Positions 3,249 through 62,631 of a stretch of 64,000 nucleotides of DNA are shown in pieces (position 1 is the first letter of the stretch; each line of letters opens with the position of its first letter). The DNA comes from Escherichia coli. Lineage in GTDB: Bacteria > Pseudomonadota > Gammaproteobacteria > Enterobacterales > Enterobacteriaceae. Made by a program: the position numbers and the translations under genes. The notes under the pieces were generated by a model. That model did not search any database, had not been told where the DNA came from, and saw only the letters and a program-made list of their open reading frames with translations. Where the stretch lies: the NCBI RefSeq assembly GCF_022846255.1, contig NZ_AP025682.1; one strand, 5' to 3'.

Positions 3249-3698
3249 TTATTTTAAGCACTGCGTCCTGATGTACTCCTGCAGGTAGTTAACCTGCGCG
3301 GTTATCCTGTCGATTCCACTTCGGAGACGGTAATAATTGAGTTCAGCATCTGCTGTAAGTCCTGGGCTTTCTCCATCGCCCATGCCGCTGGCTCCGGTCG
3401 TTGACTTTGCACAGGTGGCGGCGACTTGCAGGCGCTTACGCCCAGCAGAAACATCAGCACGGAGACTTTCAATAGTCGCGTTAGCATCAGCAAGCTCCTT
3501 TGTATATCTGGCATCGAGTTCTGCTACGTCACGTTGACGCTTCTGCATGTCAGCGATGATGGATGTGGCTTTGTCGCGCTGTTCTTTGTAGGTCATGGCG
3601 TTATCACGGTAATGATTAACAGCCCATGACAGGCAGACGATGATGCAGATAACCAGAGCGGAGATAATCGCGGTTACTCTGCTCATTGTTGCCCCCAC
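3249..3698 (-). CDS. Rz: Rz i-spanin
   Basis: 149 aa, N-terminal membrane anchor plus coiled-coil-like sequence, overlaps endolysin stop. Confidence 0.8.
3302..3487 (-). CDS. Rz1: Rz1 o-spanin lipoprotein embedded in Rz in another frame
   Basis: Embedded [23 protein letters not shown]..., lipobox VSAC, Pro-rich. Confidence 0.5.
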
Positions 3699-4180
3699 AA
3701 ACAGACTTCACGCTCAATCTCACGGCGAGCCATCAGCCCTTTCCATTGATTACCGCCAGCGTATGTCCAACGCCGTAGCTGATCACATGCGCCTTTGATA
3801 TCGCCCTGGTTTATTTTGCGAAGAAGCGTCGATGTTCTGAAATTGCCAGCGCCCACGTTGTAAACGAATGAGTAAAGAGCGCCGCGCGTTGTTTCCGGTA
3901 TATCGACTTTGATGTACGGGTTAATTTGTCTGGCGACAGTGGCAAGGTCTTTATTCAAGAGTGCTTTGCATTCTGCTTTGGTATACGTTTTACCGAGCAT
4001 GATGTCTTTTCCTGTATGCCCGTGACATACAGTCCATACACCAACAATATCTTTGTATGGTATGTAGCTGACACCTTCCAGACCATCGTTACCACCTGGG
4101 CCAGTGATTAACACTGATGCTATAGCAATTGCTCCGCCACCAATAGCAGCAGCAACGGCTTTTCGTAATGATGGAGGCAT
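3683..4180 (-). CDS. R: SAR endolysin (phage 21 R-type lysozyme)
   Basis: 165 aa; N-terminal Gly/Ala-rich signal-anchor-release segment [23 protein letters not shown] then lysozyme-like domain. Confidence 0.9.
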
Positions 4181-5249: not shown

Positions 5250-5911
5250 GCGCCTTCTCCCTGTACCTGAATCAATGTGAGATTTCCGCAGAACACTGCC
5301 CCAGTATCGATATACATCTGGTTGGCAAATTTGAGTGGTTTCACTGCTGGCGTATGACCAAAGATAAACGTGTCCGCGCCTTTAATTTCTTTAACGATCC
5401 CGTCTTGTGAGTTGCTGATTCGTTCGCGGTTCCAGATTACCTGCTGATGATCAACTGGCTTTCCAAATTCGTATTCGTCACAAGGATAATCGGCGTGGCA
5501 GATGACATATTTTTTACCTTTGCTCACCAGTTCGATGATTAACGGAAGTTCTTCTGCTTTATGGGCAAGAGCTTTAGCCAGAATTTCTTTGTCGTAATCG
5601 AGATTAAAGAACCAGCCACCGCCATTAAGCAGCCAGTGATTAACGTTTCCACGCTCTGATAAGCCATCAATCATCATTTGCTCATGGTTTCCACGTACAG
5701 CTCTGAACCAGGGGAATGTGATTAATTCCAGGCATTCAACGTTCTCTGCGCCACGATCAACCAAATCGCCCACCGAGATAAGCAGGTCTTTTTTGTTATC
5801 GAATCCAATCGTATCCAGTTTGTTCATCAGGTTCGTGTAGCATCCGTGCAGATCGCCAACTACCCAAATATTTCGGTATTTGCTGCCATCAATTCTTTCG
5901 TAGATATTCAT
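5240..5911 (-). CDS. ninI: NinI Ser/Thr protein phosphatase
   Basis: 223 aa, GDLHG and GNHE metallophosphatase motifs, matches lambda NinI as recalled. Confidence 0.9.
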
Positions 5912-6519
5912 GCAGCCTCACTTCTGCTGTTTCGCAGTTTTTTAAGTTTCTGTTGATACTCCGCCTTGATGGTCCTGCACTCTTCGACAGTCCAGCGATG
6001 GCGGTTATGGTTTGATTCGATTTCGTCTACTGCTTCCTGCCCGATGCGGTTAATCAGTTCGACGCGATACGGAACGAGATTTCCGCTTTTGTGCTGGTTG
6101 CACACCACGCATTGCTTGTGAATATTACGTTCATCAAATCGGAGTTGAGGCGCCGCAGCAGTTGTCCGGTAATGCCCGGCATCCCACTGAGCAGACGTGA
6201 GCGTTCCGCACGAGATACATGGTAAGTCGCGGTCTCTTTCTCTGATGAAGGCGTTTACGGCTTGTTGGGCTTGTTTAATCCAGTAACTGCGGGGCTTTAA
6301 GGCGAGTTTTCGAATCTTAAGTTTATCTTTCTGTTTCTGCTCCTCTCGTCGTCGTTTCTTCTCTGCTGCCTTTTCCGCTTTTTCGCGTTCTTTGCTTCGT
6401 CGTTCGAGTGCTATCTTGGTTCCACACTCTGGAGAGCACCACCACTGATTGGCGAATGCAGGGTGAAACCATTCCCGACATTCATCGTTTTTACATCGTC
6501 TTCGCGCTGGTTTAGCCAT
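5908..6519 (-). CDS. ninG: NinG (Rap) recombination protein
   Basis: 203 aa, [22 protein letters not shown]..., matches lambda NinG as recalled. Confidence 0.9.
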
Positions 6520-13467: not shown

Positions 13468-14253
13468 ATGAGTACAGCACTCGCAACGCTGGCAGGGAAG
13501 CTGGCTGAACGTGTCGGCATGGATTCTGTCGACCCACAGGAACTGATCACCACTCTTCGCCAGACAGCATTTAAAGGCGATGCCAGCGATGCGCAGTTCA
13601 TCGCATTGCTGATCGTCGCCAACCAGTACGGCCTTAATCCGTGGACGAAAGAAATTTACGCCTTCCCTGATAAGCAGAACGGCATCGTTCCGGTGGTGGG
13701 CGTTGATGGCTGGTCCCGTATCATCAATGAAAACCAGCAGTTTGATGGCATGGACTTTGAGCAGGACAATGAATCCTGCACATGCCGGATTTACCGCAAG
13801 GACCGTAATCATCCGATCTGCGTTACCGAGTGGATGGATGAATGCCGCCGCGAACCATTCAAAACCCGCGAAGGCAGAGAAATCACGGGGCCGTGGCAGT
13901 CGCATCCCAAACGGATGTTACGTCATAAAGCCATGATTCAGTGTGCCCGTCTGGCCTTCGGATTTGCTGGTATCTATGACAAGGATGAAGCCGAGCGCAT
14001 TGTCGAAAATACCGCATACACTGTAGAACGTCAGCCGGAACGCGACATCACTCCGGTTAACGATGAAACCATGCAGGAGATTAACACTCTGCTGATCGCC
14101 CTGGATAAAACATGGGATGACGACTTATTGCCGCTCTGTTCCCAGATATTTCGCCGCGACATTCGCGCATCGTCAGAACTGACACAGGCCGAAGCAGTGA
14201 AAGCTCTTGGATTCCTGAAACAGAAAGCCACTGAGCAGAAGGTGGCAGCATGA
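13468..14253 (+). CDS. bet: Bet (Red-beta recombinase)
   Basis: 261 aa, [32 protein letters not shown]... Confidence 0.95.
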
Positions 14254-14930
14254 CACCGGACATTATCCTGCAGCGTACCGGGATCGACGTGAGAGCTGTC
14301 GAACAGGGGGATGATGCGTGGCACAAATTACGGCTCGGCGTCATCACCGCTTCAGAAGTTCACAATGTGATAGCAAAACCCCGCACCGGAAAAAAGTGGC
14401 CTGACATGAAAATGTCCTACTTTCACACCCTGCTGGCTGAGATTTGCACCGGTGTGGCTCCGGAAGTTAACGCTAAGGCGCTGGCCTGGGGAAAACAGTA
14501 CGAGAACGACGCCAGAGCCCTGTTTGAGTTTACTTCCGGCGTGAATGTTACTGAATCCCCGATCATCTATCGCGACGAAAGTATGCGCACCGCCTGCTCT
14601 CCCGATGGTTTATGCAGTGACGGCAATGGCCTTGAGCTGAAATGCCCGTTTACCTCCCGGGATTTCATGAAGTTCCGGCTCGGTGGTTTCGAGGCCATAA
14701 AATCGGCTTACATGGCCCAGGTGCAGTACAGCATGTGGGTGACGCGAAAAGATGCCTGGTACTTTGCCAACTATGACCCGCGTATGAAGCGTGAAGGCCT
14801 GCATTATGTCGTGATTGAGCAGAATGAAAAGTACATGGCGAATTTTGACGAGATGGTGCCGGAGTTCATCGAAAAAATGGACGTGGCACTGGCTGAAATT
14901 GGTTTTGTATTTGGGGAGCAATGGCGATGA
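14250..14930 (+). CDS. exo: Exo (Red-alpha exonuclease)
   Basis: 226 aa, [43 protein letters not shown]... Confidence 0.95.
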
Positions 14931-15109
14931 AGCATCCTCACGATAATATCCGGGTAGGCGCGATCACTTTCGTCTACTCCGTTACAAAGCGAGGCTGGGT
15001 ATTTCCCGGCCTTTCTGTTATCCGAAATCCCCTGAAAGCACAGCGGCTGGCTGAGGAGATAAATAATAAACGGGGAGCTGTATGCACAAAGCATCTCCCG
15101 TTGAGTTAA
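14921..15109 (+). CDS. Lambda orf60a-like small protein
   Basis: [37 protein letters not shown]... Confidence 0.6.
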
Positions 15110-15273
15110 GAACGAGTATCGAGATGGCACATAGCCTCGCTCAAATTGGAGTCAGGTTTGTGCCAATACCAGTAGAAACAGACGAAGAATTTCATACGTT
15201 AGCCGCATCCCTTTCACAAAAGCTGGAAATGATGGTGGCGAAAGCAGAAGCAGATGAGAGAGACCAGGTATGA
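15082..15273 (+). CDS. Lambda orf63-like small protein
   Basis: [38 protein letters not shown]... Confidence 0.6.
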   Translation: MHKASPVELRTSIEMAHSLAQIGVRFVPIPVETDEEFHTLAASLSQKLEMMVAKAEADERDQV

Positions 15274-15349
15274 CAACCACTGAATGCATTTTTCTGGCAG
15301 CGGGCTTCATATTCTGTGTGCTTATGCTTGCCGACATGGGGCTTGTTCA

Positions 15350-15565
15350 GTGACACCTCAGCAAGAAAACGCCCTTCGCAGCATTGCCCGTCAGGCTAAT
15401 TCTGAAATCAAAAAAGCCAGACAGCAGTTTCCGGATAAAAACGTCGATGACATTTGCCGTAGCGTACTGAAGAAGCACCGCGAAACGGTAACGCTGATGG
15501 GATTCACACCGACTCATTTAAGCCTTGCGATCGGCATGTTGAACGGCGTCTTTAAGGAACGGTGA
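15350..15565 (+). CDS. Lambda orf61-like small protein
   Basis: GTG start inside ORF 15284..15565: VTPQQENALRSIARQANSEIKKARQQFPDKNVDDICRSVLKKH... Confidence 0.5.
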   Translation: MTPQQENALRSIARQANSEIKKARQQFPDKNVDDICRSVLKKHRETVTLMGFTPTHLSLAIGMLNGVFKER

Positions 15566-15663
15566 ACATGAAAAGCAAAATCATCAGGGAGCTACAGGCT
15601 CCTTTTTTATTATTCGCATTTACCCTCAAGCGTATTAACCAACAATTCAGGGATTAATGAAAG

Positions 15664-15885
15664 ATGGCGGACATCATTGATTCAGTATCAGAAATTGAAG
15701 AATTACAGCGCAATACAGCAATAAAAATGCGTCGTCTGAACCACCAGACTATATCTGCCACTCATTGTTGTGAGTGTGGCGATCCGATAGATGAACTAAG
15801 ACGTCTGGCCGTTCAGGGTTGTCGGACTTGTGCAAGTTGCCAGGAAGATCTGGAGCTTATCAGTAAACAGAGAGGTTCGAAGTGA
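15664..15885 (+). CDS. TraR/DksA-family C4 zinc-finger protein
   Basis: 73 aa with CCECGDPIDELRR...CRTCASC four-Cys motif. Confidence 0.6.
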   Translation: MADIIDSVSEIEELQRNTAIKMRRLNHQTISATHCCECGDPIDELRRLAVQGCRTCASCQEDLELISKQRGSK

Positions 15886-16091
15886 GCGAAATTAACTCTC
15901 AGGCACTGCGTGAAGCGGCGGAACGTGCAATTCCAGCAATGGAACGCCTGTTAATGTTGCCAGCTGATGATGATTTGTTAAGTGAACAGGAACTTAAAGA
16001 TTACGGTGTGGATATTGATGCGCTCAACGCCTTCAAATTTCTGGCCGGACCAGAAACCGTGCTGGCACTGCGCCGTCAGGAAGTTTTTTAG
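15882..16091 (+). CDS. Hypothetical acidic protein, last gene of the pL operon
   Basis: 69 aa, GTG start overlapping the TraR-like stop, so likely translationally coupled. Confidence 0.5.
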   Translation: MSEINSQALREAAERAIPAMERLLMLPADDDLLSEQELKDYGVDIDALNAFKFLAGPETVLALRRQEVF

Positions 16092-16120
16092 TACGATCAA
16101 TGGTTAACTCAACTCTCATG
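16034..16120 (-). CDS. Candidate 28-aa ORF downstream of the LexA-box promoter
   Basis: Strong SD GAGGAGGG 5 nt before ATG; MRVELTIDRTKKLPDGAVPARFLVRPEI; antisense to the 3' end of gene 15882..16091. Confidence 0.25.
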
Positions 16121-16138
16121 ATTCCCTCCTCATTGATT

Positions 16139-16189
16139 TACTGTGTGAATATACAGTTACTTTATAAACCTCTCATTTGGATTTTGCAA
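16139..16189 (-). promoter_or_regulatory. Putative LexA-repressed promoter
   Basis: Minus strand TTGCAA, 17-bp spacer, TATAAA, then TACTGTGTGAATATACAGTT on + (CTGT-N8-ACAG) covering the predicted start site. Confidence 0.5.
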
Positions 16190-16223
16190 TGTTTTAAGGG
16201 CACGAATTGCGAATAACCCTATA

Positions 16224-16256
16224 CAAAAAAACCCGCCGAAGCGGGTCTTATCTTTC
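16224..16256. terminator. Bidirectional intrinsic terminator
   Basis: AAAAAAA-CCCGC-CGAA-GCGGG-TCTTATCTTTC; strong U-tract for minus-strand transcripts, weaker for the plus-strand pL operon. Confidence 0.6.
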
Positions 16257-16257
16257 A

Positions 16258-16431
16258 TTAATGCTTAGTCCTTACAGGAAAAGACCAGCATTTATATCCG
16301 TATGCGTGTGCATCCAAAACTCGGCGCTCTGAGTCAGGCGTCCCAGCTTTAGCTCGCGCCCTGCGATAACGACATTTTACCCAGCGGAAACCATCCGGAA
16401 GTTTTTTGGTAGGAATTTCTTTCAAAGCCAT
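16258..16431 (-). CDS. Candidate 58-aa basic ORF
   Basis: ATG with GAGG 7 nt upstream; MALKEIPTKKLPDGFRWVKCRYRRARAKAG...; below the ORF-track size cutoff. Confidence 0.2.
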   Translation of the reverse strand: MALKEIPTKKLPDGFRWVKCRYRRARAKAGTPDSERRVLDAHAYGYKCWSFPVRTKH

Positions 16432-16580
16432 AAATAAACCTCGTTCCAGGCGAGCACTTCCCTGAAACTTGATAAAAATATGGGGATCCGCTAATGTACT
16501 GTTGTTGACGCAGTACTGATTGCGGGTGCTCTAACATCCCCAATCCGAGCCCTTCCCCGGCAAAGGAAGGGCTCAAATTC

Positions 16581-17111
16581 TTATGAAGGCTTCACATACG
16601 CCTTCAAAATCGACATAATACGCTCAGCTTCTTCCATCGTGATGTTGGTAGGCAACCCCTGAACTGTAATCATTGCCCCTGTTTCAGGTCGAACAACGAT
16701 CGGTAAATTGAAAGTCTGCACTTTCTCATGTCTTGCAGCTTTAGCTTTCTCCATCTTCTGCTCCACCGCATCAAACCCATCTAAATTTCCTTCGGTGTCT
16801 GCCAAGTTGACTAAAGTCCCCACTCGCGTGTACTCCTCAAACTTATTGACAGCACTTTTAAACCGGCTTCGATAATTATGAATGGTGGATTCACTGGGCT
16901 TGTTTGCCTGAGTTTCAGCATAACGAGTAATGAGGTCTTCAACGTTCAGGTCGCGCACATCATCGTTGTCACTCGTGTCGACCACAGATAACAGCAGCAA
17001 CGCAGAATTTTTTAAGTTGCGAGCTGTTGCTTCGTTGATCAGCCCCAAGTTAGGCAACTTCATAAGAAAATCGAAGAATGCTTGCGTTGAGTAATTATCG
17101 TTCATAAGCAT
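16581..17111 (-). CDS. Hypothetical protein, 176 aa, no recognisable family
   Basis: ORF track; ATG start; hairpin GAGCCCTTCC...GGAAGGGCTC just after the stop. Confidence 0.6.
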   Translation of the reverse strand: MLMNDNYSTQAFFDFLMKLPNLGLINEATARNLKNSALLLLSVVDTSDNDDVRDLNVEDLITRYAETQANKPSESTIHNYRSRFKSAVNKFEEYTRVGTLVNLADTEGNLDGFDAVEQKMEKAKAARHEKVQTFNLPIVVRPETGAMITVQGLPTNITMEEAERIMSILKAYVKPS

Positions 17112-17156
17112 CTCTCATTGTTATCCATAGGTGTAGTGTAGATTCAGAGGTTTTAC

Positions 17157-17196
17157 CGATCAATGTTTTTTTTATCGATCGATCAATCTTTTTTTA
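17157..17196 (-). promoter_or_regulatory. GATC-clustered direct repeats in the leader of the 176-aa gene
   Basis: Three GATC within 27 bp; two copies of CGATCAAT each followed by a T-run, 45-85 bp upstream of the start codon. Confidence 0.35.
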
Positions 17197-17337
17197 AATC
17201 TAACCAATCCCACCCACTTAAAAACACTCAACAACATTTCACCCCCTCAGAAACAAAATAAAATAAACTATATAAAACAACAAAATACACAGATCTATAA
17301 AACAGACAACCGCCCCCGCCTCCCCCACCCCATACTG
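17186..17337 (-). repeat. Strand-asymmetric tract: G-depleted on +, G-rich on -
   Basis: About 6 G in ~150 nt on +; minus strand has GGGGTGGGGGAGGCGGGGGCGG (17310-17331) and further G-runs. Confidence 0.45.
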
Positions 17338-17407
17338 AATTTAGATACAGCCTTAGTTAATCAACCTTCGTTCACCAGAGCAGCACATATGCCTTCGGAC
17401 TTTTTAG

Positions 17408-17995
17408 TTAAGCCACAAATGGCAGTTTGCACAGTTCTGGTAGATTTGCCCTTACCAGAGCCTCCGCGAATTGTGGAGGTACGGCATTTCCGCATCTGGC
17501 GACCTGTTTATCCTTCGCATACTTCACGCCACGATAATCTTGGTCGATGATGTACCAGTCCGGGAAGCCCTGCGCCCGGTACAGTTCACGCGGCTGTAAC
17601 ATGCGCATACCAATATCAACAATGCGATACGTCACGCCATCGATCACCACCAGCCCGGTACAATCCTCGCCACAGTATTTACGCAGGAACGACAGCGTTT
17701 GTTGCGCGCGTTCTTCGTCGTACTCATCTACGGCAAGATGGGTTTCAACGTTCCCTACATGCAGGCCACCAGCCGTGACAGTCGGCATTGGCGCGTCGGT
17801 GCGTTGTCCATCCCGGCAGGTTCCGCGCAATTTAACCAGGTGAGAAGCAACCACAGCATGGTGATCGACGGTGGTCACAGAATGCATCGGCTCATCCATC
17901 CCCACTTCGGCAATAAACCGGTAAAGGTGTTCGCGATAAAGGTGAATATCAATGACTAAATCAGCAGCAGAAAGCAAAAGAATTTTTAGGTACAA
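17408..17995 (-). pseudogene. Remnant of a DNA cytosine-C5 methyltransferase (C-terminal part only)
   Basis: Motif IX-like RMLQPRELYRAQGFPDWY and motif X-like ARCGNAVPP present; no FxGxGG or PCQ motifs; ORF opens only with TTG. Confidence 0.6.
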
Positions 17996-18065
17996 TCAAA
18001 ATCACTTTTTGTTGTTAACTATTTGATGAACTACAAGGATAAGATCATGTATCAGCAAATCATTT

Positions 18066-18356
18066 TTGAAGAAGGAAAAGAACCAAGAGTGCACACAAGC
18101 CACCAAGACATCAAGACATCAAGACATCAAGACATCAAGACATCAAGACATCAAGTCTATCGAAATAAGTGATAACAGTGGAAAAGTTCAAGAGATTTCG
18201 GTTATGGAGTTCAAGGATACCAGAGGAGATGTTTTTTATGCTTACAACTATGCTTATTCTGGTAAAAAACCATCAAATGACGAAATCTATAAGGCTATTG
18301 ATGAGCTAAAGCCAATCGGTGAAAAATTCGAAATGTCTAAGACTATAAGCGATTAG
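18066..18356 (+). CDS. Hypothetical small protein containing an octanucleotide tandem repeat
   Basis: ORF track (TTG start, no SD); upstream ATG at 18047 with AAGGA SD is out of frame by one repeat unit. Confidence 0.4.
   Translation: MKKEKNQECTQATKTSRHQDIKTSRHQDIKSIEISDNSGKVQEISVMEFKDTRGDVFYAYNYAYSGKKPSNDEIYKAIDELKPIGEKFEMSKTISD
18102..18157 (+). repeat. Octanucleotide tandem repeat ATCAAGAC
   Basis: Five perfect units at 18110-18149 flanked by ACCAAGAC and ATCAAGTC; unit length is not a multiple of 3. Confidence 0.9.
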
Positions 18357-18518
18357 ATAAATCTGTTTTCAACATTGCAGCAAAATCATAGGAAGAACGC
18401 GACAAAGTTAACATGCTATCGCGAACAGTCGTTAACATCACCTAAAGTCAGCGAATCGCGATACATGGAAATGTCTGGGAAGAACGCCAAGAAGTAAGCG
18501 CAATTTGAACAAATGCGA

Positions 18519-18545
18519 ACCCGCCGAGTGCGGGTTTTCTTTTAT
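18519..18545 (+). terminator. Intrinsic terminator
   Basis: ACCCGC-CGAGT-GCGGGT followed by TTTCTTTTAT. Confidence 0.6.
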
Positions 18546-18586
18546 CTGAACTCGCTACGGCGGGTTTTGTTTTATGGAGACAAGAA

Positions 18587-18931
18587 ATGTCAGATTTGGC
18601 TATGAAGGTTTTGAAATGGCAATCGACTGGCGATGTTGGCATCAGTAGCGCAACTCTTGCCTCAATCGCATGTGGACTGAAAAAGAATATCTATGGTCAT
18701 AGCTTCGGTGCTCCACATGACGCAGCCGATTTCCGACGATGCGTTGCGCTTGTCGAGCAGATTCCAGAAATCAGGGATTCATTCGACAAGGTTGCAAAGC
18801 GCGTTCCGGCATTCAAAGGCATCCTCAACGAATGGGATTCTCTCGTTGCTCTGTTGAAGTCTGAAATGAAGATACACGGAAACAAAGCACCAGAGACTTA
18901 CAGAAGAATTAGCGAGTTACGCAAGGACTAA
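18587..18931 (+). CDS. Hypothetical protein, 114 aa, no recognisable family
   Basis: ORF track; ATG with GGAGA SD; MSDLAMKVLKWQSTGDVGISSATLASIACGLKK... Confidence 0.55.
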   Translation: MSDLAMKVLKWQSTGDVGISSATLASIACGLKKNIYGHSFGAPHDAADFRRCVALVEQIPEIRDSFDKVAKRVPAFKGILNEWDSLVALLKSEMKIHGNKAPETYRRISELRKD

Positions 18932-18989
18932 CCACAGCCTCACACTCGATGAGGCCCGTTCATTTCTCAAGATATCCAGACCTACCATT

Positions 18990-19012
18990 GCCGCATCAAT
19001 GCGGCTTTTCTT
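18990..19012 (+). terminator. Putative terminator before xis
   Basis: GCCGCA-TCAA-TGCGGC followed by TTTTCTT. Confidence 0.45.
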
Positions 19013-19036
19013 GCGTGTAATTGCGGAGACTTTGCG

Positions 19037-19255
19037 ATGTACTTGACACTTCAGGAGTGGAACGCACGCCAGCGACGCCCAAGAAGCCTTGAAACAGTTC
19101 GTCGATGGGTGCGCGAATGCAGGATATTCCCTCCTCCGGTTAAGGATGGAAGAGAGTATCTGTTCCACGAATCAGCGGTAAAGGTTGACTTAAATCGACC
19201 AGTAACAGGTAGCCTTTTGAAGAGGATCAGAAATGGGAAGAAGGCGAAGTCATGA
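19037..19255 (+). CDS. xis: Excisionase Xis
   Basis: 72 aa, MYLTLQEWNARQRRPRSLETVRRWVRECRIFPPPVKDGREYLFHESAVKVDL... near-identical to lambda Xis as recalled. Confidence 0.9.
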   Translation: MYLTLQEWNARQRRPRSLETVRRWVRECRIFPPPVKDGREYLFHESAVKVDLNRPVTGSLLKRIRNGKKAKS

Positions 19256-20306
19256 GCGCCGGGATTTACCCCCTAACCTTTATATAAGAAACAATGGATA
19301 TTACTGCTACAGGGACCCAAGGACGGGTAAAGAGTTCGGATTAGGCAGAGACAGGAGGATAGCAATTACTGAAGCAATACAGGCCAATATTGAGTTACTC
19401 TCAGACAGCGGACGCAAATCACTAATAGACAGAATTAAAGGCGGTGACGCAATCACTCTTCATGTGTGGCTTGACCGATATGAAACAATCCTCACCGAAA
19501 GGGGGATCAGGCCGAAAACTCTACTCGACTACGCCAGCAAAATCAGGGCAATCCGAAGAAAATTGCCGGACAAACCGCTCACTGACATATCAACGAAAGA
19601 AGTGGCAGCAATGCTAAACACCTACGTAGCAGAAGGTAAAGCAGCTTCCGCAAAATTAATCAGGTCAACCCTTGTTGACGTTTTTCGTGAAGCAATAGCC
19701 GAGGGGCATGTGGCAACGAATCCGGTAACAGCAACCCGTACAGCAAAGTCAGAAGTAAGGCGCTCAAGGCTGACAGCTAATGAGTATGTCGAGATTTACC
19801 ATGCAGCCGAACCTCTCCCTATCTGGCTAAGGCTGGCGATGGATTTGGCCGTCGTTACAGGGCAGAGAGTCGGCGATTTGTGCAGAATGAAATGGTCAGA
19901 CATAAACGACAACCATCTTCACATTGAACAGAGTAAAACAGGGGCTAAACTCGCCATTCCGCTAACGCTAACGATTGACGCGCTCAATATCTCATTGGCT
20001 GATACACTACAGAAATGCAGGGAGGCCAGCAGCAGTGAAACTATAATCGCATCAAAGCATCACGATCCGCTTTCCCCGAAAACAGTATCAAAGTATTTTA
20101 CAAAGGCGAGAAATGCATCTGGACTCTCATTTGATGGAAACCCGCCAACATTCCATGAACTGCGTAGCCTGTCAGCGAGGCTATACCGGAACCAGATTGG
20201 CGATAAGTTTGCTCAACGTCTTCTCGGGCATAAATCAGACTCAATGGCGGCGCGGTATAGGGACAGCCGTGGACGGGAATGGGACAAAATTGAAATCGAC
20301 AAATGA
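19233..20306 (+). CDS. int: Tyrosine integrase, lambda family, HK022-like
   Basis: 357 aa; N-terminal arm-binding domain identical to lambda Int, central and catalytic domains diverged; RSLSARLY and HKSD motifs. Confidence 0.95.
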   Translation: MGRRRSHERRDLPPNLYIRNNGYYCYRDPRTGKEFGLGRDRRIAITEAIQANIELLSDSGRKSLIDRIKGGDAITLHVWLDRYETILTERGIRPKTLLDYASKIRAIRRKLPDKPLTDISTKEVAAMLNTYVAEGKAASAKLIRSTLVDVFREAIAEGHVATNPVTATRTAKSEVRRSRLTANEYVEIYHAAEPLPIWLRLAMDLAVVTGQRVGDLCRMKWSDINDNHLHIEQSKTGAKLAIPLTLTIDALNISLADTLQKCREASSSETIIASKHHDPLSPKTVSKYFTKARNASGLSFDGNPPTFHELRSLSARLYRNQIGDKFAQRLLGHKSDSMAARYRDSRGREWDKIEIDK

Positions 20307-20400
20307 TTTTATTTTGACTAATAATGACCTGCCTACATTAATTCATTGATAATAAAAGAGATTTTAAATATACAACTTATTCACCTAAAGTGCACCGACC
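20307..20400. other. Approximate prophage-chromosome junction (attL)
   Basis: AT-rich 94 bp between int stop and torS start; core not located at nucleotide resolution. Confidence 0.35.
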
Positions 20401-23133
20401 GTGAATTTAACCCTGACCCGAAGACTCTGGATGGGCTTTGCCCTGATGGCGCTGTTAACCCTGACCAGTACCCTGGTGGGATGGTACAACCTGCGCTTTA
20501 TCAGCCTGGTGGAAAAAGACAACACTCAGGCATTGATTCCTACCATGAATATGGCGCGCCAGTTGAGCGAAGCCAGCGCCTGGGAACTTTTCGCCGCGCA
20601 GAACCTGACCAGTGCCGATAACGAAAAGATGTGGCAGGCGCAGGGGCGAATGCTCACCGCACAAAGCCTGAAGATTAATGCGTTGCTGCAAGCGTTACGG
20701 GAACAAGGTTTTGACACCACCGCTATTGAACAACAGGAGCAGGAGATCTCCCGTTCGTTACGTCAGCAAGGGGAACTGGTGGGACAGCGTTTGCAACTGC
20801 GCCAGCAACAACAGCAACTCAGTCAGCAGATAGTCGCCGCCGCCGATGAGATCGCACGCCTGGCGCAAGGTCAGGCGAATAATGCGGCAACCTCCGCCGG
20901 AGCGACCCAGGCCGGGATTTACGATTTGATCGAACAACATCAGCGTCAGGCCGCAGAAAGTGCACTCGATCGGCTGATTGATATCGATCTTGAGTATGTT
21001 AACCAGATGAATGAACTGCGCCTTAGCGCCCTACGGGTGCAGCAAATGGTGATGAATCTGGGGCTGGAACAGATCCAGAAAAATGCGCCAACGCTGGAAA
21101 AGCAGCTCAATAATGCGGTGAAAATTCTGCAACGTCGGCAAATACGCATTGAAGATCCGGGTGTTCGTACTCAGGTAGCAACAACGTTAACTACCGTTAG
21201 CCAATATAGCGATTTGCTGGCGCTGTATCAGCAGGACAGTGAAATCAGCAATCACCTGCAAACTCTCGCCCAAAATAACATCGCCCAATTCGCGCAGTTT
21301 AGTAGCGAAGTCAGTCAGCTGGTCGACACCATTGAGCTGCGTAATCAGCACGGACTGGCGCATCTGGAAAAAGCCAGTGCACGCGGGCAATACAGCCTGT
21401 TATTGCTGGGGATGGTTTCACTTTGCGCACTGATACTGATCCTCTGGCGCGTGGTTTATCGCTCAGTCACGCGTCCACTTGCCGAACAAACGCAGGCACT
21501 GCAACGACTGCTGGACGGTGATATTGACTCCCCTTTCCCGGAAACCGCTGGCGTACGGGAACTGGACACCATCGGGCGGCTGATGGATGCGTTTCGCAGC
21601 AGTGTTCATGCACTGAATCGCCACCGTGAACAGTTGGCGGCGCAGGTCAAAGCGCGTACAGCTGAATTGCAGGAACTGGTGATAGAACACCGACAGGCAC
21701 GGGCGGAAGCAGAAAAAGCCAACCAGGCAAAATCAGCGTTTCTGGCGGCGATGAGCCATGAGATCCGCACACCGCTGTACGGTATTCTCGGTACCGCACA
21801 GCTACTGGCAGATAACCCCGCACTTAACGCTCAGCGTGATGATTTGCGGGCAATTACCGACTCTGGCGAATCGTTGCTGACCATCCTCAACGATATTCTC
21901 GATTATTCGGCTATCGAAGCAGGCGGCAAGAATGTTTCGGTCAGCGATGAACCCTTTGAACCGCGCCCGTTGCTGGAAAGTACCCTGCAATTAATGAGCG
22001 GACGGGTGAAAGGTCGCCCGATTCGCCTGGCAACGGCAATTGCCGACGATGTACCGACTGCGTTAATGGGCGATCCGCGGCGTATTCGTCAGGTCATTAC
22101 CAACCTGTTGAGCAACGCCCTGCGTTTCACCGACGAAGGGCACATTATCCTGCGTAGTCGCACTGATGGCGAACAATGGCTGGTCGAAGTGGAAGACAGC
22201 GGTTGCGGTATTGATCCCGCGAAACTGGCAGAAATCTTCCAGCCATTTGTTCAGGTAAGCAGCAAACGCGGCGGAACCGGGCTGGGGCTGACTATCAGTA
22301 GCCGTCTGGCCCAGGCGATGGGCGGCGAACTGAGCGCCACCAGCACGCCGGAGGTTGGAAGCTGTTTTTGTTTACGCTTGCCGTTACGTATTGCCACTGC
22401 ACCCGTGCCAAAAACAGTCAATCAGGCGGTACGTCTGGACGATTTGCGTTTGCTGTTAATTGAAGATAACCCGCTCACCCAGCGAATTACTGTCGAAATG
22501 CTGAACACCAGTGGTGCGCAGGTCGTTGCAGTAGGAAATGCCGCGCAGGCTTTAGAGACACTGCAAAATAGTGAACCATTTGCTGTCGCACTGGTGGATT
22601 TTGATCTGCCGGATATCGACGGCATTACGCTTGCCCGGCAACTGGCACAGCAATATCCGTCGCTGGTTTTGATTGGCTTTAGCGCTCATGTCATCGACGA
22701 AACACTGCGCCAGCGTACCAGTTCGCTATTTCGCGGGATTATCCCTAAACCGGTGCCGCGTGAAGTGCTCGCTCAATTACTGGCGCACTATCTCCAACTG
22801 CAAGTCAAAAATGATCAACCGCTGGATGTATCGCAACTCAATGAAGATGCTCATTTAATGGGGGCGGAGAAGATCCACGAATGGCTGATATTATTTAAAC
22901 AACATGCCCTGCCGCTTCTCGATGAAATCGACATTGCCCGCGCCAGTCAGGATAACGAGAAAATAAAGCGTGCCGCACATCAGCTAAAAAGCAGTTGCTC
23001 GAGTCTGGGAATGCGTAGCGCCAGCCAGCAATGCGCACAACTGGAGCAGCAGCCATTATCTGCCCCCCTTCCACACGAAGAAATTACACGCAGTGTTGCC
23101 GCTCTGGAAGCATGGTTAATAAGAAAGACCTGA
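20401..23133 (+). CDS. torS: TorS hybrid sensor kinase
   Basis: 910 aa, [33 protein letters not shown]..., HisKA/HATPase/receiver/HPt; GTG start. Confidence 0.95.
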
Positions 23134-46571: not shown

Positions 46572-46591
46572 TACTGTACATCCATACAGTA
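46572..46591 (+). promoter_or_regulatory. LexA box of sulA
   Basis: TACTGTACATCCATACAGTA just upstream of sulA. Confidence 0.85.
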
Positions 46592-61620: not shown

Positions 61621-62631
61621 TTAGATATGGGTAACGATTTCTTTAATCAGCGGCGGACCTTTAAAAATAAAACCAGAATAAATTTGCACCAGTGAGGCAC
61701 CCGCAGCAATCTTTTCACGCGCAGCGATAACCGAGTCAATGCCGCCAACACCAATAATCGGCAAGCGTCCGTTTAATTCCTGTGACAAGCGGCGAATAAT
61801 TTCGGTGCTTTTTAACTGAAGCGGACGACCACTTAAGCCACCGGTTTGATCGCAATTTTTCATTCCCTGAACCAGAGAACGATCGAGTGTGGTATTGGTT
61901 GCAATAACGCCATCAATATTATGGCGAACTAAACTATCGGCAACCTGGATCAATTCTTCTTCAGAAAGATCCGGCGCGATCTTCACTGCGATCGGCACAT
62001 ATTTATGGTGCATCACTTGCAAATCATTTTGTTTATTTTTAATCGCAGTTAAGAGATCATCCAGCGCTTCACCATATTGCAGTGTGCGTAATCCTGGGGT
62101 ATTTGGCGATGAAATATTGATGGCGATATATCCCGCATAGGCATAGATTTTTTCCATACAAATCAGATAGTCATCTTTACCCTGCTCCACCGGCGTATCT
62201 TTATTTTTGCCGATGTTAATACCCAGAACGCCGTCATAATGGGCTTTTTTTACGTTCTCTACGAGGTTATCAACGCCAAGATTATTAAAGCCCATACGGT
62301 TGATCAAACCTTCGGCATCTACCAAACGAAAGAGACGCGGCTTGTCATTACCTGGCTGGGGACGTGGCGTGACGGTACCGATCTCGATCGATCCAAATCC
62401 CATCGCGCCTAACGCGTCAATGCACTCCCCGTCTTTATCAAGACCGGCTGCCAGACCAAGCGGATTTTTAAACGTCAGGCCCATGCAGTTAACAGGTTTC
62501 GCAGGCACTTTCTGCCGCACCAGTGCTTCAAACGGCGTTCCTGTAATACGGCGTAATTGCTGAAAAGTAAACTCATGAGCGCGCTCTGGATCGAGCTGGA
62601 AAAGGGCTTTACGAACGAAGGGGTAGTACAT
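61621..62631 (-). CDS. pyrD: Dihydroorotate dehydrogenase (quinone)
   Basis: Internal Met [26 protein letters not shown]... Confidence 0.95.

What the first reader, a model, noticed from the sequence alone, without database searches (positions are those of the whole stretch)
16581..17400. 176-aa orphan gene with an unusual leader: GATC-clustered direct repeats and a G-depleted tract with G-quadruplex-like runs on the sense strand
Upstream of the 176-aa gene lies a 296-bp spacer. It contains three GATC sites within 27 bp arranged as two CGATCAAT repeats each followed by a T-run (17157-17196), and about 150 nt almost devoid of G on the plus strand (17186-17337). On the coding strand that gives runs such as GGGGTGGGGGAGGCGGGGGCGG. 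Clustered Dam sites in promoters are the hallmark of methylation-dependent epigenetic switches (pap, agn43), and G-runs on the non-template strand can form G-quadruplexes or R-loops. Together with the nearby tandem repeat, this suggests heterogeneous expression.
Basis: partly seen in the sequence, partly recalled or inferred. Interest (0 to 1): 0.55.

Follow-up and report, generated by a model that had tools for sequence, protein, structure and literature searches.

The report
GATC-rich promoter of a prophage regulator gene
The "unusual leader" is the conserved control region of a mobile prophage gene cassette: a LexA-like box, an AT-rich spacer, and a promoter built around GATC boxes that drives a small, uncharacterised integrase-like DNA-binding protein. 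The G-runs are a lineage-specific accident.

Summary
The sequence features are real, but the gene is not an orphan. It is phrog_2602, part of a family with 879 clusters at 50% identity, and it includes VT2-Sakai orf22. Its N-terminal half folds like the core-binding (CB) domain of tyrosine recombinases, and it has no catalytic domain.

Comparison with about 100 related loci resolves the 296-bp spacer into four parts:
- A LexA-like CTG-N10-CAG box (17335-17350) where homology between prophage contexts begins.
- A C-poor, T-rich spacer. The skew is a family trait, but the G-run block (17310-17331) is lineage-specific and is not a canonical G4 motif.
- A conserved GATCTGTGTA island.
- A promoter with an A8 UP-like tract, -35 TTGATC (17163-17158), a 17-bp spacer and an extended -10 TCTACACT (17142-17135).

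Two GATC boxes are invariant in close relatives. GATC is 5.6-fold enriched upstream of the whole family (z=17). In many relatives the boxes form a covarying inverted repeat.

Best model: the boxes are an operator, probably for the gene's own CB-domain product, overlapping the promoter. Dam methylation would then be an unavoidable modulator in this E. coli host. I found no OxyR or Lrp site and no evidence of a pap/agn43-type switch. The nearby 8-nt tandem repeat belongs to a different ORF.

The parts
16581..17105 (-). CDS of 174 aa (176 aa if started at ATG 17111). It has an N-terminal tyrosine-recombinase core-binding (CB/SAM-like) domain, a disordered linker, and a C-terminal beta-hairpin plus helix. 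There is no catalytic domain.
17112..17116 (-). Shine-Dalgarno sequence GAGAG, 6 nt before ATG 17105.
   Evidence: Read from the sequence. Purine-rich block conserved in position in alignment A2.
17135..17142 (-). Extended -10 element TCTACACT (hexamer TACACT at 17140-17135). TCTAnACT is invariant in close relatives. It resembles the sigma-S consensus TCTATACTTAA, with C at -13.
   Evidence: Alignment A2 invariant columns. Consensus quoted from PMC3367168. Promoter function is inferred; there are no transcript data.
17158..17163 (-). -35 hexamer TTGATC, 17 bp from the -10. It contains GATC 17158-17161.
   Evidence: Invariant in 20/20 distinct relatives. The simple scanner did not list it because the two hexamers together match 8/12, below its 9/12 threshold.
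17149..17164 (-). Box R, ATTGATCGGTAAAACC. This is the right arm of the family's inverted repeat and overlaps the -35 and the spacer.
17166..17173 (-). A8 tract directly upstream of the -35 (about -45 to -38). It resembles a proximal UP-element subsite.
   Evidence: Sequence. Conserved as A7 in most close relatives but absent in the Klebsiella/Raoultella subgroup. The UP-element consensus AAAAAARNR is recalled from the literature, not tested.
17174..17189 (-). Box L, AGATTGATCGATCGAT. This is the left arm of the inverted repeat and holds two overlapping GATC sites (17177, 17181). The CGATCGAT core is nearly invariant.
17190..17196 (-).
17197..17334 (-). C-poor, T-rich spacer on the sense strand. 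It is poorly conserved in sequence but the skew is shared by relatives.
   Evidence: Window -240..-85: C 4.5%, GC skew +0.75. Nineteen relatives: C 6-15%, mean skew +0.34. The whole leader is not unusually structured (z=-0.8).
17278..17297 (-). Conserved island TAGATCTGTGTATTTTGTTG, containing GATC 17292-17295.
   Evidence: Alignment A3: GAT invariant, C and T >=90%, TA and TG conserved. GATC is present at the homologous place in nearly all distinct close relatives (L017 has GATT there).
17310..17331 (-). G-run block GGGGTGGGGGAGGCGGGGGCGG. It is lineage-specific filler.
   Evidence: Present only in the window and the identical metagenome contig L002. Absent from L011 (90% protein identity, same methyltransferase context) and from all others. 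No exact match in viral contigs. No canonical G4 motif.
17333..17352 (-). LexA-like box GGCTGTATCTAAATTCAGTA (core CTG-N10-CAG at 17335-17350). Sequence similarity between different prophage contexts begins here.
   Evidence: The pattern occurs 4 times in the window against 0.29 expected. PWM score 14.5 bits against 12.9-27.1 for the training boxes, though the best hit in shuffled windows averaged 12.9. (C/T)TG-N10-CAG is kept in 16/16 aligned relatives while the interior varies.
16547..16574 (-). Hairpin immediately after the stop codon.
   Evidence: Three pairs with compensatory changes in 15 sequences. Also listed as terminator-like on the + strand.
16471..16541 (-). Nearly invariant nested stem-loop (GGGGAU...AUCCCC) followed by AUAUUUUUAUC, lying between the two genes of the cassette.
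16258..16431 (-). Second cassette gene, a 57-aa basic protein (phrog_33859).
   Evidence: The ORF is intact in all 20 relatives, with third-position variation. phrog_33859 at E=3.8e-35.
16225..16245 (-). Intrinsic terminator CCCGCTTCGGCGGGTTTTTTT, which ends the conserved cassette.

Best explanation
The 296-bp spacer is the composite regulatory region of a mobile two-gene prophage cassette.

Proposed mechanism:
1. Transcription of the 174-aa gene starts near 17128. The promoter consists of an A8 UP-like tract, -35 TTGATC, a 17-bp spacer and the extended -10 TCTACACT. This is inferred from conservation.
2. Two GATC-cored boxes bracket and include the -35: CGATCGAT about 18 bp upstream, and ATTGATCG. 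In many relatives they extend into a 13-16-bp inverted repeat. I take them to be an operator.
3. The most likely binder is the cassette's own product, a stand-alone integrase core-binding-domain protein. Binding would occlude the -35 and the UP tract, giving autorepression. This step is inferred.
4. Every box contains a Dam site and the host is E. coli. Methylation state (full, hemi or none) should therefore change the affinity of RNA polymerase, the binder, or both. That would tie expression to replication or to newly entered DNA. This is inferred and is a consequence rather than a demonstrated purpose.
5. A LexA-like box about 245 nt upstream adds a probable SOS input. Its promoter is not resolved.
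6. The C-poor, T-rich stretch between the box and the promoter is a family-wide compositional trait of unknown role. The extreme G-runs in this window are lineage-specific and non-functional.
For: - Promoter hexamers, the 17-bp spacing and TCTAnACT are invariant in 20 distinct upstream regions whose proteins are only 62-99% identical.
- The two GATC boxes are kept in 19/20 and 20/20 of these sequences.
- GATC is enriched 5.6-fold across 33 cluster representatives, down to 35% protein identity. Distant members keep two CGATC motifs about 31 bp apart flanking a TTGATT -35.
- The inverted repeat covaries at 4 of 13 pairs. None of 500 shuffles reached the observed score, and slid controls were far lower. 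It scores 11-12/12 in six of 30 cluster representatives, against a maximum of 10-11 in shuffles.
- The protein is a CB-domain fold. Its most conserved segment, EATARNLKN, falls in the model's second helix. The FliZ paper names helix 2 of integrase CB domains as DNA-contacting. It also reports that CB domains bind inverted repeats and that FliZ, which has only a CB-like DNA-binding region, represses at promoters (PMC3367168).
- A LexA-like box is kept at the same distance in all four subgroups while its interior diverges. One subgroup has two overlapping boxes scoring 19.7 and 15.2.
- In most other loci the cassette is followed by dinI. In this window a LexA box scoring 24.4 sits at the remnant of the dinI promoter.
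- The host is E. coli.
Against: - No transcript, binding or methylation data exist for this locus. No paper on the family was found.
- In the window itself the inverted repeat has decayed: 9/13 complementary, and 9/12 in the scan, which is no better than shuffles. Here only the two direct GATC boxes remain.
- G-T pairs in the repeat would fit an RNA hairpin as well as an operator.
- The LexA-like box scores low and lies too far upstream to occlude the mapped promoter. No consistent -35/-10 pair was found next to it.
- All family members with known hosts are Dam+ Enterobacterales. A protein recognition motif and selection for Dam sites therefore cannot be separated.
- A recent E. coli study found that dense Dam-site clusters generally do not alter local transcript levels when dam is deleted (PMC11741368).
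Confidence: 0.5

Rival explanations
1. A Dam-dependent heritable ON/OFF switch of the pap/agn43/gtr type. A methylation-sensitive host regulator competes with Dam at the clustered GATC sites and produces bistable expression.
For: Three GATC sites within 27 bp of a promoter in a Dam+ host. The GATC sites are conserved and enriched across the family.
Against: The best OxyR, Lrp, IHF, H-NS, Fis and DnaA consensus matches in the spacer are no better than in shuffled sequence. GATC spacing differs between subgroups, 18-19 bp in one and about 31 bp in another. No methylation or single-cell data exist.
Confidence: 0.12
2. The inverted repeat acts as an RNA hairpin in transcripts arriving from upstream, either from a LexA-controlled promoter or by read-through. 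It would be an attenuator, terminator or processing site that insulates the cassette, like the terminators of the lambda nin region.
For: The sense-strand hairpin folds at -11.2 kcal/mol (z=-3.2), while the antisense strand does not fold notably (z=-0.4). C-G, U-G and U-A alternate at one pair and there is an invariant G-U pair. In the Klebsiella subgroup the stem is followed by UUUUU.
Against: A terminator does not need GATC, yet GATC is the invariant core. GATC is also enriched in relatives that have no repeat. The window has no U-tract after the stem and the scanner lists no terminator there. The 3' arm contains the invariant -35.
Confidence: 0.12
3. A plain constitutive promoter. The GATC motifs follow from a TTGATC-type -35 hexamer and its duplications, with no dedicated binder and no role for methylation.
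For: Three distant non-enteric relatives show repeated TTGAC/TTGAT motifs near their promoters rather than GATC specifically. The direct repeats in the window look like a duplicated A-tract plus -35.
Against: Box L (CGATCGAT) is not a -35 and is as conserved as the real hexamers. The outer arms covary. Distant enteric relatives place CGATC inside the spacer, where no hexamer constraint applies.
Confidence: 0.12
4. G-quadruplex or R-loop formation by the G-rich sense strand modulates transcription.
For: The window has three G4-5 runs within 22 nt and a strong GC skew.
Against: No canonical G4 motif is present. The block is absent in every relative outside this lineage. If the mapped promoter is used, the block lies upstream of the transcription start and is not transcribed.
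Confidence: 0.03
5. On the opposite (+) strand the C-rich, G-poor tract serves as a Rho-loading (rut) site. It would stop antisense transcripts entering the cassette. Alternatively, the C-poor sense leader avoids Rho loading on a long untranslated leader.
For: The + strand at 17182-17336 has 51 C and 5-6 G in about 155 nt. The skew is shared by 17 of 19 relatives. That rut sites are C-rich and G-poor is established knowledge.
Against: In most relatives the cassette is co-directional with its neighbours, so no antisense transcript is expected. No experimental data exist. The skew is weak in two subgroups (L007, L020).
Confidence: 0.08

Closest known systems
FliZ of E. coli, a repressor whose only DNA-binding region resembles the integrase core-binding domain
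   Same: Both are small proteins (183 aa against 174 aa) with a CB-like DNA-binding domain and no recombinase catalytic domain. FliZ acts at promoter elements by binding extended -10 regions of the sigma-S type (PMC3367168). The promoter here carries an invariant TCTAnACT of that type.
   Different: The CB-like region is C-terminal in FliZ and N-terminal here. I did not test sequence relatedness to FliZ. FliZ sites are not GATC-based. FliZ is chromosomal and belongs to the flagellar regulon, whereas this gene sits in a prophage cassette. DNA binding by this protein is only predicted.
agn43 (flu), pap and gtr: Dam-dependent phase variation
   Same: Several GATC sites clustered in a regulatory region of a Dam+ enterobacterium. 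Antagonism between methylation and a bound protein would be possible in principle (flu is summarised in PMC11741368).
   Different: No OxyR or Lrp consensus is present. One GATC lies in the -35 hexamer itself. The candidate binder is phage-encoded, not a global host regulator. No evidence of bistability exists.
Promoters with GATC in a core element (IS10 transposase pIN, dnaA P2, glnS)
   Same: A Dam site inside the promoter, so promoter strength can depend on methylation or hemimethylation. These cases are listed in PMC11741368 and its references.
   Different: Here there are additional conserved GATC boxes outside the hexamers, an inverted repeat in relatives, and enrichment across the whole family. 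This suggests a dedicated binding protein, not only an effect on RNA polymerase.
Recombinase-derived phage repressors (SPbeta MrpR 8a0a, phi3T SroF 9rd5)
   Different: Those proteins are about 320 aa, roughly twice the length of this one. They come from Bacillus phages. This protein stops after the CB domain and adds an unrelated beta-hairpin plus helix.
LexA-controlled prophage accessory genes (dinI-like genes in lambdoid nin regions)
   Same: A CTG-N10-CAG box, and adjacency to dinI in most relatives.
   Different: The box lies about 215 nt upstream of the mapped promoter and no promoter next to it was resolved. Its score is at the low end of real boxes.

Membership tests
pap/agn43-type Dam phase-variation switch | Two or more GATC sites in the regulatory region of a gene in a Dam+ host | tested here: met
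   GATC at 17158, 17177, 17181 and 17292. Host is E. coli.
pap/agn43-type Dam phase-variation switch | GATC sites lie inside binding sites of a methylation-sensitive regulator (OxyR or Lrp) | tested here: not met
   Best OxyR match 10/20 and best Lrp match 12/15, both no better than shuffles. This is a consensus-level test only. An unknown binder is not excluded.
pap/agn43-type Dam phase-variation switch | Alternative heritable methylation patterns and ON/OFF subpopulations | not testable with these tools
   Needs methylation calls and single-cell reporters.
Sigma-70/sigma-S promoter | -35 and -10 hexamers at 16-18 bp spacing, conserved in relatives, correctly placed before the Shine-Dalgarno sequence and start codon | tested here: met
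   TTGATC-17-TACACT, invariant TTGATC and TAnACT in 20/20 relatives, about 23-nt 5' UTR. The transcription start itself is not testable here.
LexA (SOS) box | CTG-N10-CAG palindrome with a score in the range of known boxes | tested here: inconclusive
   14.5 bits against 12.9-27.1 for 21 recalled E. coli boxes. The best hit in shuffled 64-kb sequence averaged 12.9 with a maximum of 16.6.
LexA (SOS) box | Motif kept at the same position in relatives while surrounding sequence diverges | tested here: met
   (C/T)TG-N10-CAG in 16/16 aligned sequences. Scores reach 19.7 and tandem boxes occur in the L023 group.
LexA (SOS) box | Box overlaps or adjoins the promoter it controls | tested here: inconclusive
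   No consistent -35/-10 pair was found at the box. The mapped promoter is about 215 bp downstream.
G-quadruplex | Four runs of G>=3 with loops of 1-7 (or 1-12) nt | tested here: not met
   No hits on either strand of the whole window. Only a G2 pattern at 17310-17331.
G-quadruplex | Conservation of the G-runs in relatives | tested here: not met
   Absent in L011, L004-L034 and L096-L102.
Tyrosine recombinase | Core-binding (SAM-like) four-helix domain | tested here: met
Tyrosine recombinase | Catalytic domain with the R-K-H-R-H/W-Y residues | tested here: not met
PHROG 2602 | Full-length profile match | tested here: met
   E=5.1e-66, residues 3-175 on profile positions 2-172 of 173.
Intrinsic terminator at the inverted repeat | GC-rich stem followed by a U-tract | tested here: not met
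   Not listed by the scanner. In the window the stem is followed by CUCUGAAUCU.
Known anti-phage defence proteins (PADLOC) | Profile match | tested here: not met
   No families match at E<=1 for this protein or for VT2-Sakai orf22.

The most novel reading that the evidence does not exclude
The cassette could be a self-contained methylation-reading switch. In this reading a phage-encoded CB-domain protein has an operator made of Dam sites. It binds only unmethylated or hemimethylated GATC boxes, so its own expression and any other targets would respond to replication, prophage induction or the entry of unmethylated foreign DNA. An SOS box would add a second input. This would be a Dam-coupled regulator of a new protein class, found in many enterobacterial prophages, including the rex position of the Stx2 phage VT2-Sakai.
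Probability: 0.15. Interest if true: 0.7.

Novelty: new variant of a known kind. Interest (0 to 1): 0.42.

Why it matters
The gene belongs to a large family of about 180-aa proteins that has no Pfam family and, as far as my searches went, no literature: 879 clusters at 50% identity. The family reuses the integrase core-binding domain without the catalytic domain. It travels as a self-promoted cassette in accessory positions of lambdoid prophages. One homologue sits between cI and N of the Shiga-toxin phage VT2-Sakai.

If the conserved GATC boxes are its operator, this gives a directly testable case of a phage regulator whose binding sites are all Dam sites, next to an SOS box. That would bear on how prophages sense replication and DNA damage. 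If not, it is an ordinary promoter of an accessory gene. The G-quadruplex idea can be dropped either way.

Tried and rejected
- Rfam scan at permissive thresholds over 15000-20500. There was nothing in the leader, only weak RsmY, isrK and snoRNA hits elsewhere, all far below gathering scores.
- Nucleotide searches found no copy of the cassette in 50,697 phage records. None was found in 5,426 complete E. coli genomes, near or distant mode. Only the methyltransferase remnant and short flanks matched.
- An exact search for the G-run in viral contigs gave no hits.
- Pfam, NCBIfam, PADLOC and PDB sequence searches of the protein or its profile gave no significant family.
- Consensus scans for OxyR, Lrp, IHF, H-NS, Fis and DnaA were at chance level.
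- The whole leader folded as RNA is not unusually stable (z=-0.8).
- A small ORF in the leader (12 aa from ATGGGG...) is not conserved in relatives.
- I tried to place a promoter at the LexA-like box or at the GATCTGTGTA island. Several candidates exist, for example TTGTCT-16-TATTTT at 17309-17282, but none is consistent across relatives.
- The scan of reference genomes returned only 5 loci.
- Three distant non-enteric homologues sat on short contigs with little context.
- Literature searches for the family, VT2-Sakai orf22 and DUF5343 returned nothing relevant.
Full report
**Setting**

The window holds a lambdoid prophage in an E. coli chromosome. On the + strand lie bet (13468-14253), exo (14250-14930), xis (19037-19255) and int (19233-20306). 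Beyond int lies host DNA: yccS-sxy is 99.7% identical to E. coli, and the sulA LexA box sits at 46572-46591.

The finding lies between exo and xis, on the minus strand, which is antisense to the early-left operon.

**Checking the observation**

All the literal features are present:
- The ORF is at 16581-17111(-), followed upstream by a 296-bp gap to the next ORF.
- GATC sites are at 17158, 17177, 17181 and 17292.
- There are two 16-nt direct repeats, CGATCAAT plus a T-run, 23 bp apart.
- The + strand has a G-free run of 68 nt, the longest in the window, and only 5 G in 155 nt.
- GGGGTGGGGGAGGCGGGGGCGG is on the sense strand at 17310-17331.

Four corrections are needed.
1. The likely start codon is ATG 17105. 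GAGAG lies 6 nt upstream of it, and the 99%-identical P0001 is called from the equivalent start and is 174 aa long.
2. The GATC triple is only the fourth tightest in the window, so on its own it is not beyond chance.
3. No canonical G-quadruplex motif occurs anywhere in the window. Only a two-tetrad pattern is present.
4. The upstream ORF (17408-17995) is the C-terminal half of a C5 DNA methyltransferase, matching profile positions 214-393 of 400. It is a remnant.

**The gene is not an orphan**

- It matches phrog_2602 at E=5e-66.
- It has 35 homologous 90%-identity clusters in Salmonella, Citrobacter, Enterobacter, Kosakonia, Cronobacter, Raoultella, Klebsiella, Rahnella, Erwinia and Serratia.
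- 83 viral-contig loci encode a relative.
- A profile search finds 879 clusters at 50% identity with E<=1e-3. Nearly all of the 150 listed are full-length proteins of 160-200 aa.
- It is 44% identical to orf22 of the Stx2 phage VT2-Sakai. That gene lies between cI and N, the position where lambda carries rex.
- No Pfam, NCBIfam or PADLOC family matches.

**The gene is part of a mobile cassette**

BLAST against 24 related loci shows conservation at 70-83% nucleotide identity from about 17196 (17298 in the closest relatives) down to 16225. The conserved block contains, in order:
- the promoter region;
- the gene;
- a hairpin after the stop codon with compensatory changes;
- a nearly invariant stem-loop with a U-rich tail;
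- a 57-aa basic protein gene (phrog_33859), intact in every relative and varying mainly at third codon positions;
- a strong terminator.

In most other prophages the cassette sits in the nin region, co-directional with its neighbours, and is usually followed by dinI. In this window only the dinI promoter and about 90 nt of dinI remain. That promoter carries a LexA box scoring 24.4 bits at 16139-16158. No copy of the cassette was found in 5,426 complete E. coli genomes.

**Anatomy of the spacer, from comparison**

Twenty distinct 110-nt upstream regions were aligned as A2. The following are invariant:
- TTGATC (window 17163-17158);
- a 17-bp spacer with conserved CC..A.TC;
- TCTAnACT (17142-17135).

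I read these as the -35 and an extended -10. The extended -10 resembles the sigma-S consensus TCTATACTTAA quoted in PMC3367168. The A8 tract directly upstream of the -35 resembles a proximal UP-element subsite. That consensus is recalled from the literature and was not tested here.

Two GATC-cored boxes are kept in 19/20 and 20/20 sequences. Box L is CGATCGAT, and box R is ATTGATCG, which contains the -35. In many relatives the boxes extend outward into an inverted repeat with 13-bp arms, 16 bp if one G-T pair is allowed. The repeat covaries at 4 of 13 pairs. None of 500 shuffles reached its covariation score, and slid controls were far lower. It is perfect (12/12) in the Klebsiella/Raoultella group, in L027 and in a 35%-identical relative, L080. 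In the window itself it is 9/13 and no better than shuffles in the scan.

**GATC across the whole family**

In 33 representatives of upstream regions that are less than 80% identical, GATC occurs 76 times against 13.5 expected (z=17). TCGA comes second. No other palindromic 4-mer is enriched. The shared context is YGATCGAT.

Relatives at 35-45% protein identity keep two CGATC motifs about 31 bp apart. One lies upstream of a TTGATT -35 and one lies in the spacer just before the -10. The Stx-phage subgroup has a different promoter, TTGCAT-17-TAAACT, with its own palindrome and one or two GATC sites.

**Further upstream**

Alignment A3 shows two conserved islands in otherwise unalignable sequence.

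The first is (C/T)TG-N10-CAG, kept in 16/16 sequences while its interior varies. This is the expected conservation pattern for a LexA box.
- The window's box scores 14.5 bits with a matrix built from 21 E. coli boxes that I recalled from memory. The training range is 12.9-27.1 bits. The best hit in shuffled windows averaged 12.9 bits.
- Relatives reach 19.7 bits, and one group has two overlapping boxes.
- Similarity between different prophage contexts begins exactly at this box.

The second island is GATCTGTGTA..TTG, containing the fourth GATC. I could not place a promoter consistently at either island.

Between these islands and the promoter, the sense strand is C-poor in 17 of 19 relatives. 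C is 6-15% and the mean GC skew is +0.34. The window is the extreme case, with C at 4.5% and a skew of +0.75. The G-run block is missing in the 90%-identical Atlantibacter homologue, which shares the same methyltransferase junction, and in all other relatives.

**Interpretation**

The best-supported reading is a promoter embedded in an operator made of GATC-cored boxes.

The cassette's own product is the most economical candidate binder, for three reasons:
- It has a CB fold.
- Its most conserved segment, EATARNLKN, falls in the model's second helix. The FliZ paper identifies helix 2 of integrase CB domains as DNA-contacting.
- The same paper states that CB domains bind inverted repeats, and that FliZ, a protein with only a CB-like DNA-binding region, represses at promoter elements.

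Because every box is a Dam site in a Dam+ host, methylation state should influence binding or promoter strength. IS10, dnaA, glnS and flu are precedents, and they are listed in PMC11741368. That paper also cautions that dense Dam clusters usually do not change local transcription.

None of these steps has been shown experimentally. Binding, the transcription start, methylation dependence and SOS control are all inferences.

**Rivals**

- A pap/agn43-type switch lacks its defining regulator sites.
- An RNA hairpin reading fits the G-U pairs and the asymmetry between strands. It does not explain why GATC is the invariant core, or why GATC is enriched where no repeat exists.
- A plain promoter with duplicated -35-like motifs remains possible. 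Three distant non-enteric relatives show TTGAC/TTGAT repeats rather than GATC.
- The G4/R-loop idea fails on both the motif and conservation.
- A Rho-related role for the compositional skew is possible but untested.

**Verdict**

This is a real and conserved regulatory region of an uncharacterised but widespread prophage cassette. The GATC cluster is meaningful and the G-runs are not. The proposed epigenetic switch is neither shown nor excluded. The nearby 8-nt tandem repeat is unrelated to this gene, but it is itself a plausible frameshift switch for another ORF.

Noticed in passing
window 18096-18155 (ORFs from ATG 18026/18047 and 18066-18356, + strand): An octanucleotide tandem repeat, CAAGACAT x7.5 (96% matches), lies inside a small ORF. 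At the present copy number the ATG-initiated frame stops after 48 aa. Simulating a gain of one unit or a loss of two fuses it to the downstream frame and gives a protein of 104-112 aa. This is a classic slipped-strand frameshift arrangement. It is independent of the 174-aa cassette, and this stretch (17990-18413) has no match in complete E. coli genomes.
   Followed up: partly
window 16225-16580 (- strand): Downstream of the 174-aa gene the cassette carries four conserved features. There is a hairpin (16547-16574) with three compensatory pairs, whose loop appears in either orientation among relatives (TTTGGCGA or TCGCCAAA). There is a nearly invariant nested stem-loop plus U-rich tail (16471-16541). 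There is a conserved 57-aa basic protein gene (16258-16431, phrog_33859, function unknown). The block ends with a strong terminator (16225-16245). The 150-nt intergenic RNA is more conserved than the coding regions.
   Followed up: partly
window 16059-16158 (- strand): A very strong LexA box, AACTGTATATTCACACAGTA (24.4 bits), is followed by about 90 nt matching the promoter and 5' end of prophage dinI genes. The rest of dinI is missing, so this is a dinI remnant left by recombination.
   Followed up: partly
window 17408-17995 (- strand): The ORF upstream of the spacer is only the C-terminal half of a C5 cytosine DNA methyltransferase (profile positions 214-393 of 400). Its first ~30 codons do not match the methyltransferase profile, and 17897-17978 matches DNA near ASCH-domain genes in E. 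coli. It is probably a pseudogene or recombination joint.
   Followed up: partly
window 16591-16619 (+ strand): The only promoter-like site passing the scanner in 16300-18200 is TTCACA-17-CATAAT (10/12). It lies antisense inside the 3' end of the 174-aa gene and could give an antisense transcript across the gene. Its conservation may simply reflect the conserved protein C-terminus.
   Followed up: no
window 6326-6406: An 81-nt A-free run on the + strand, the longest single-base-free run in the window. It lies inside the minus-strand ORF 5908-6519 and, from my reading of the reverse complement, encodes a Lys/Glu/Arg-rich stretch. It is therefore a coding-composition effect.
   Followed up: partly
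window 62380, 57856, 61948-61990: Three GATC triples tighter than the one in the finding (spans of 10, 15 and 22 bp) lie in the host part of the window.
   Followed up: no
L001 (VT2-Sakai) 3499-4001 and loci L036-L059: The Stx-phage homologue (orf22, between cI and N) has its own promoter-like TTGCAT-17-TAAACT, preceded by the palindrome CTCAAGACTTGAG and a terminator-like GC-rich hairpin with a T-run. It lacks the 57-aa partner gene (only one phage record matches that protein). The CB-domain gene therefore also occurs alone, in an immunity-region accessory position.
   Followed up: partly
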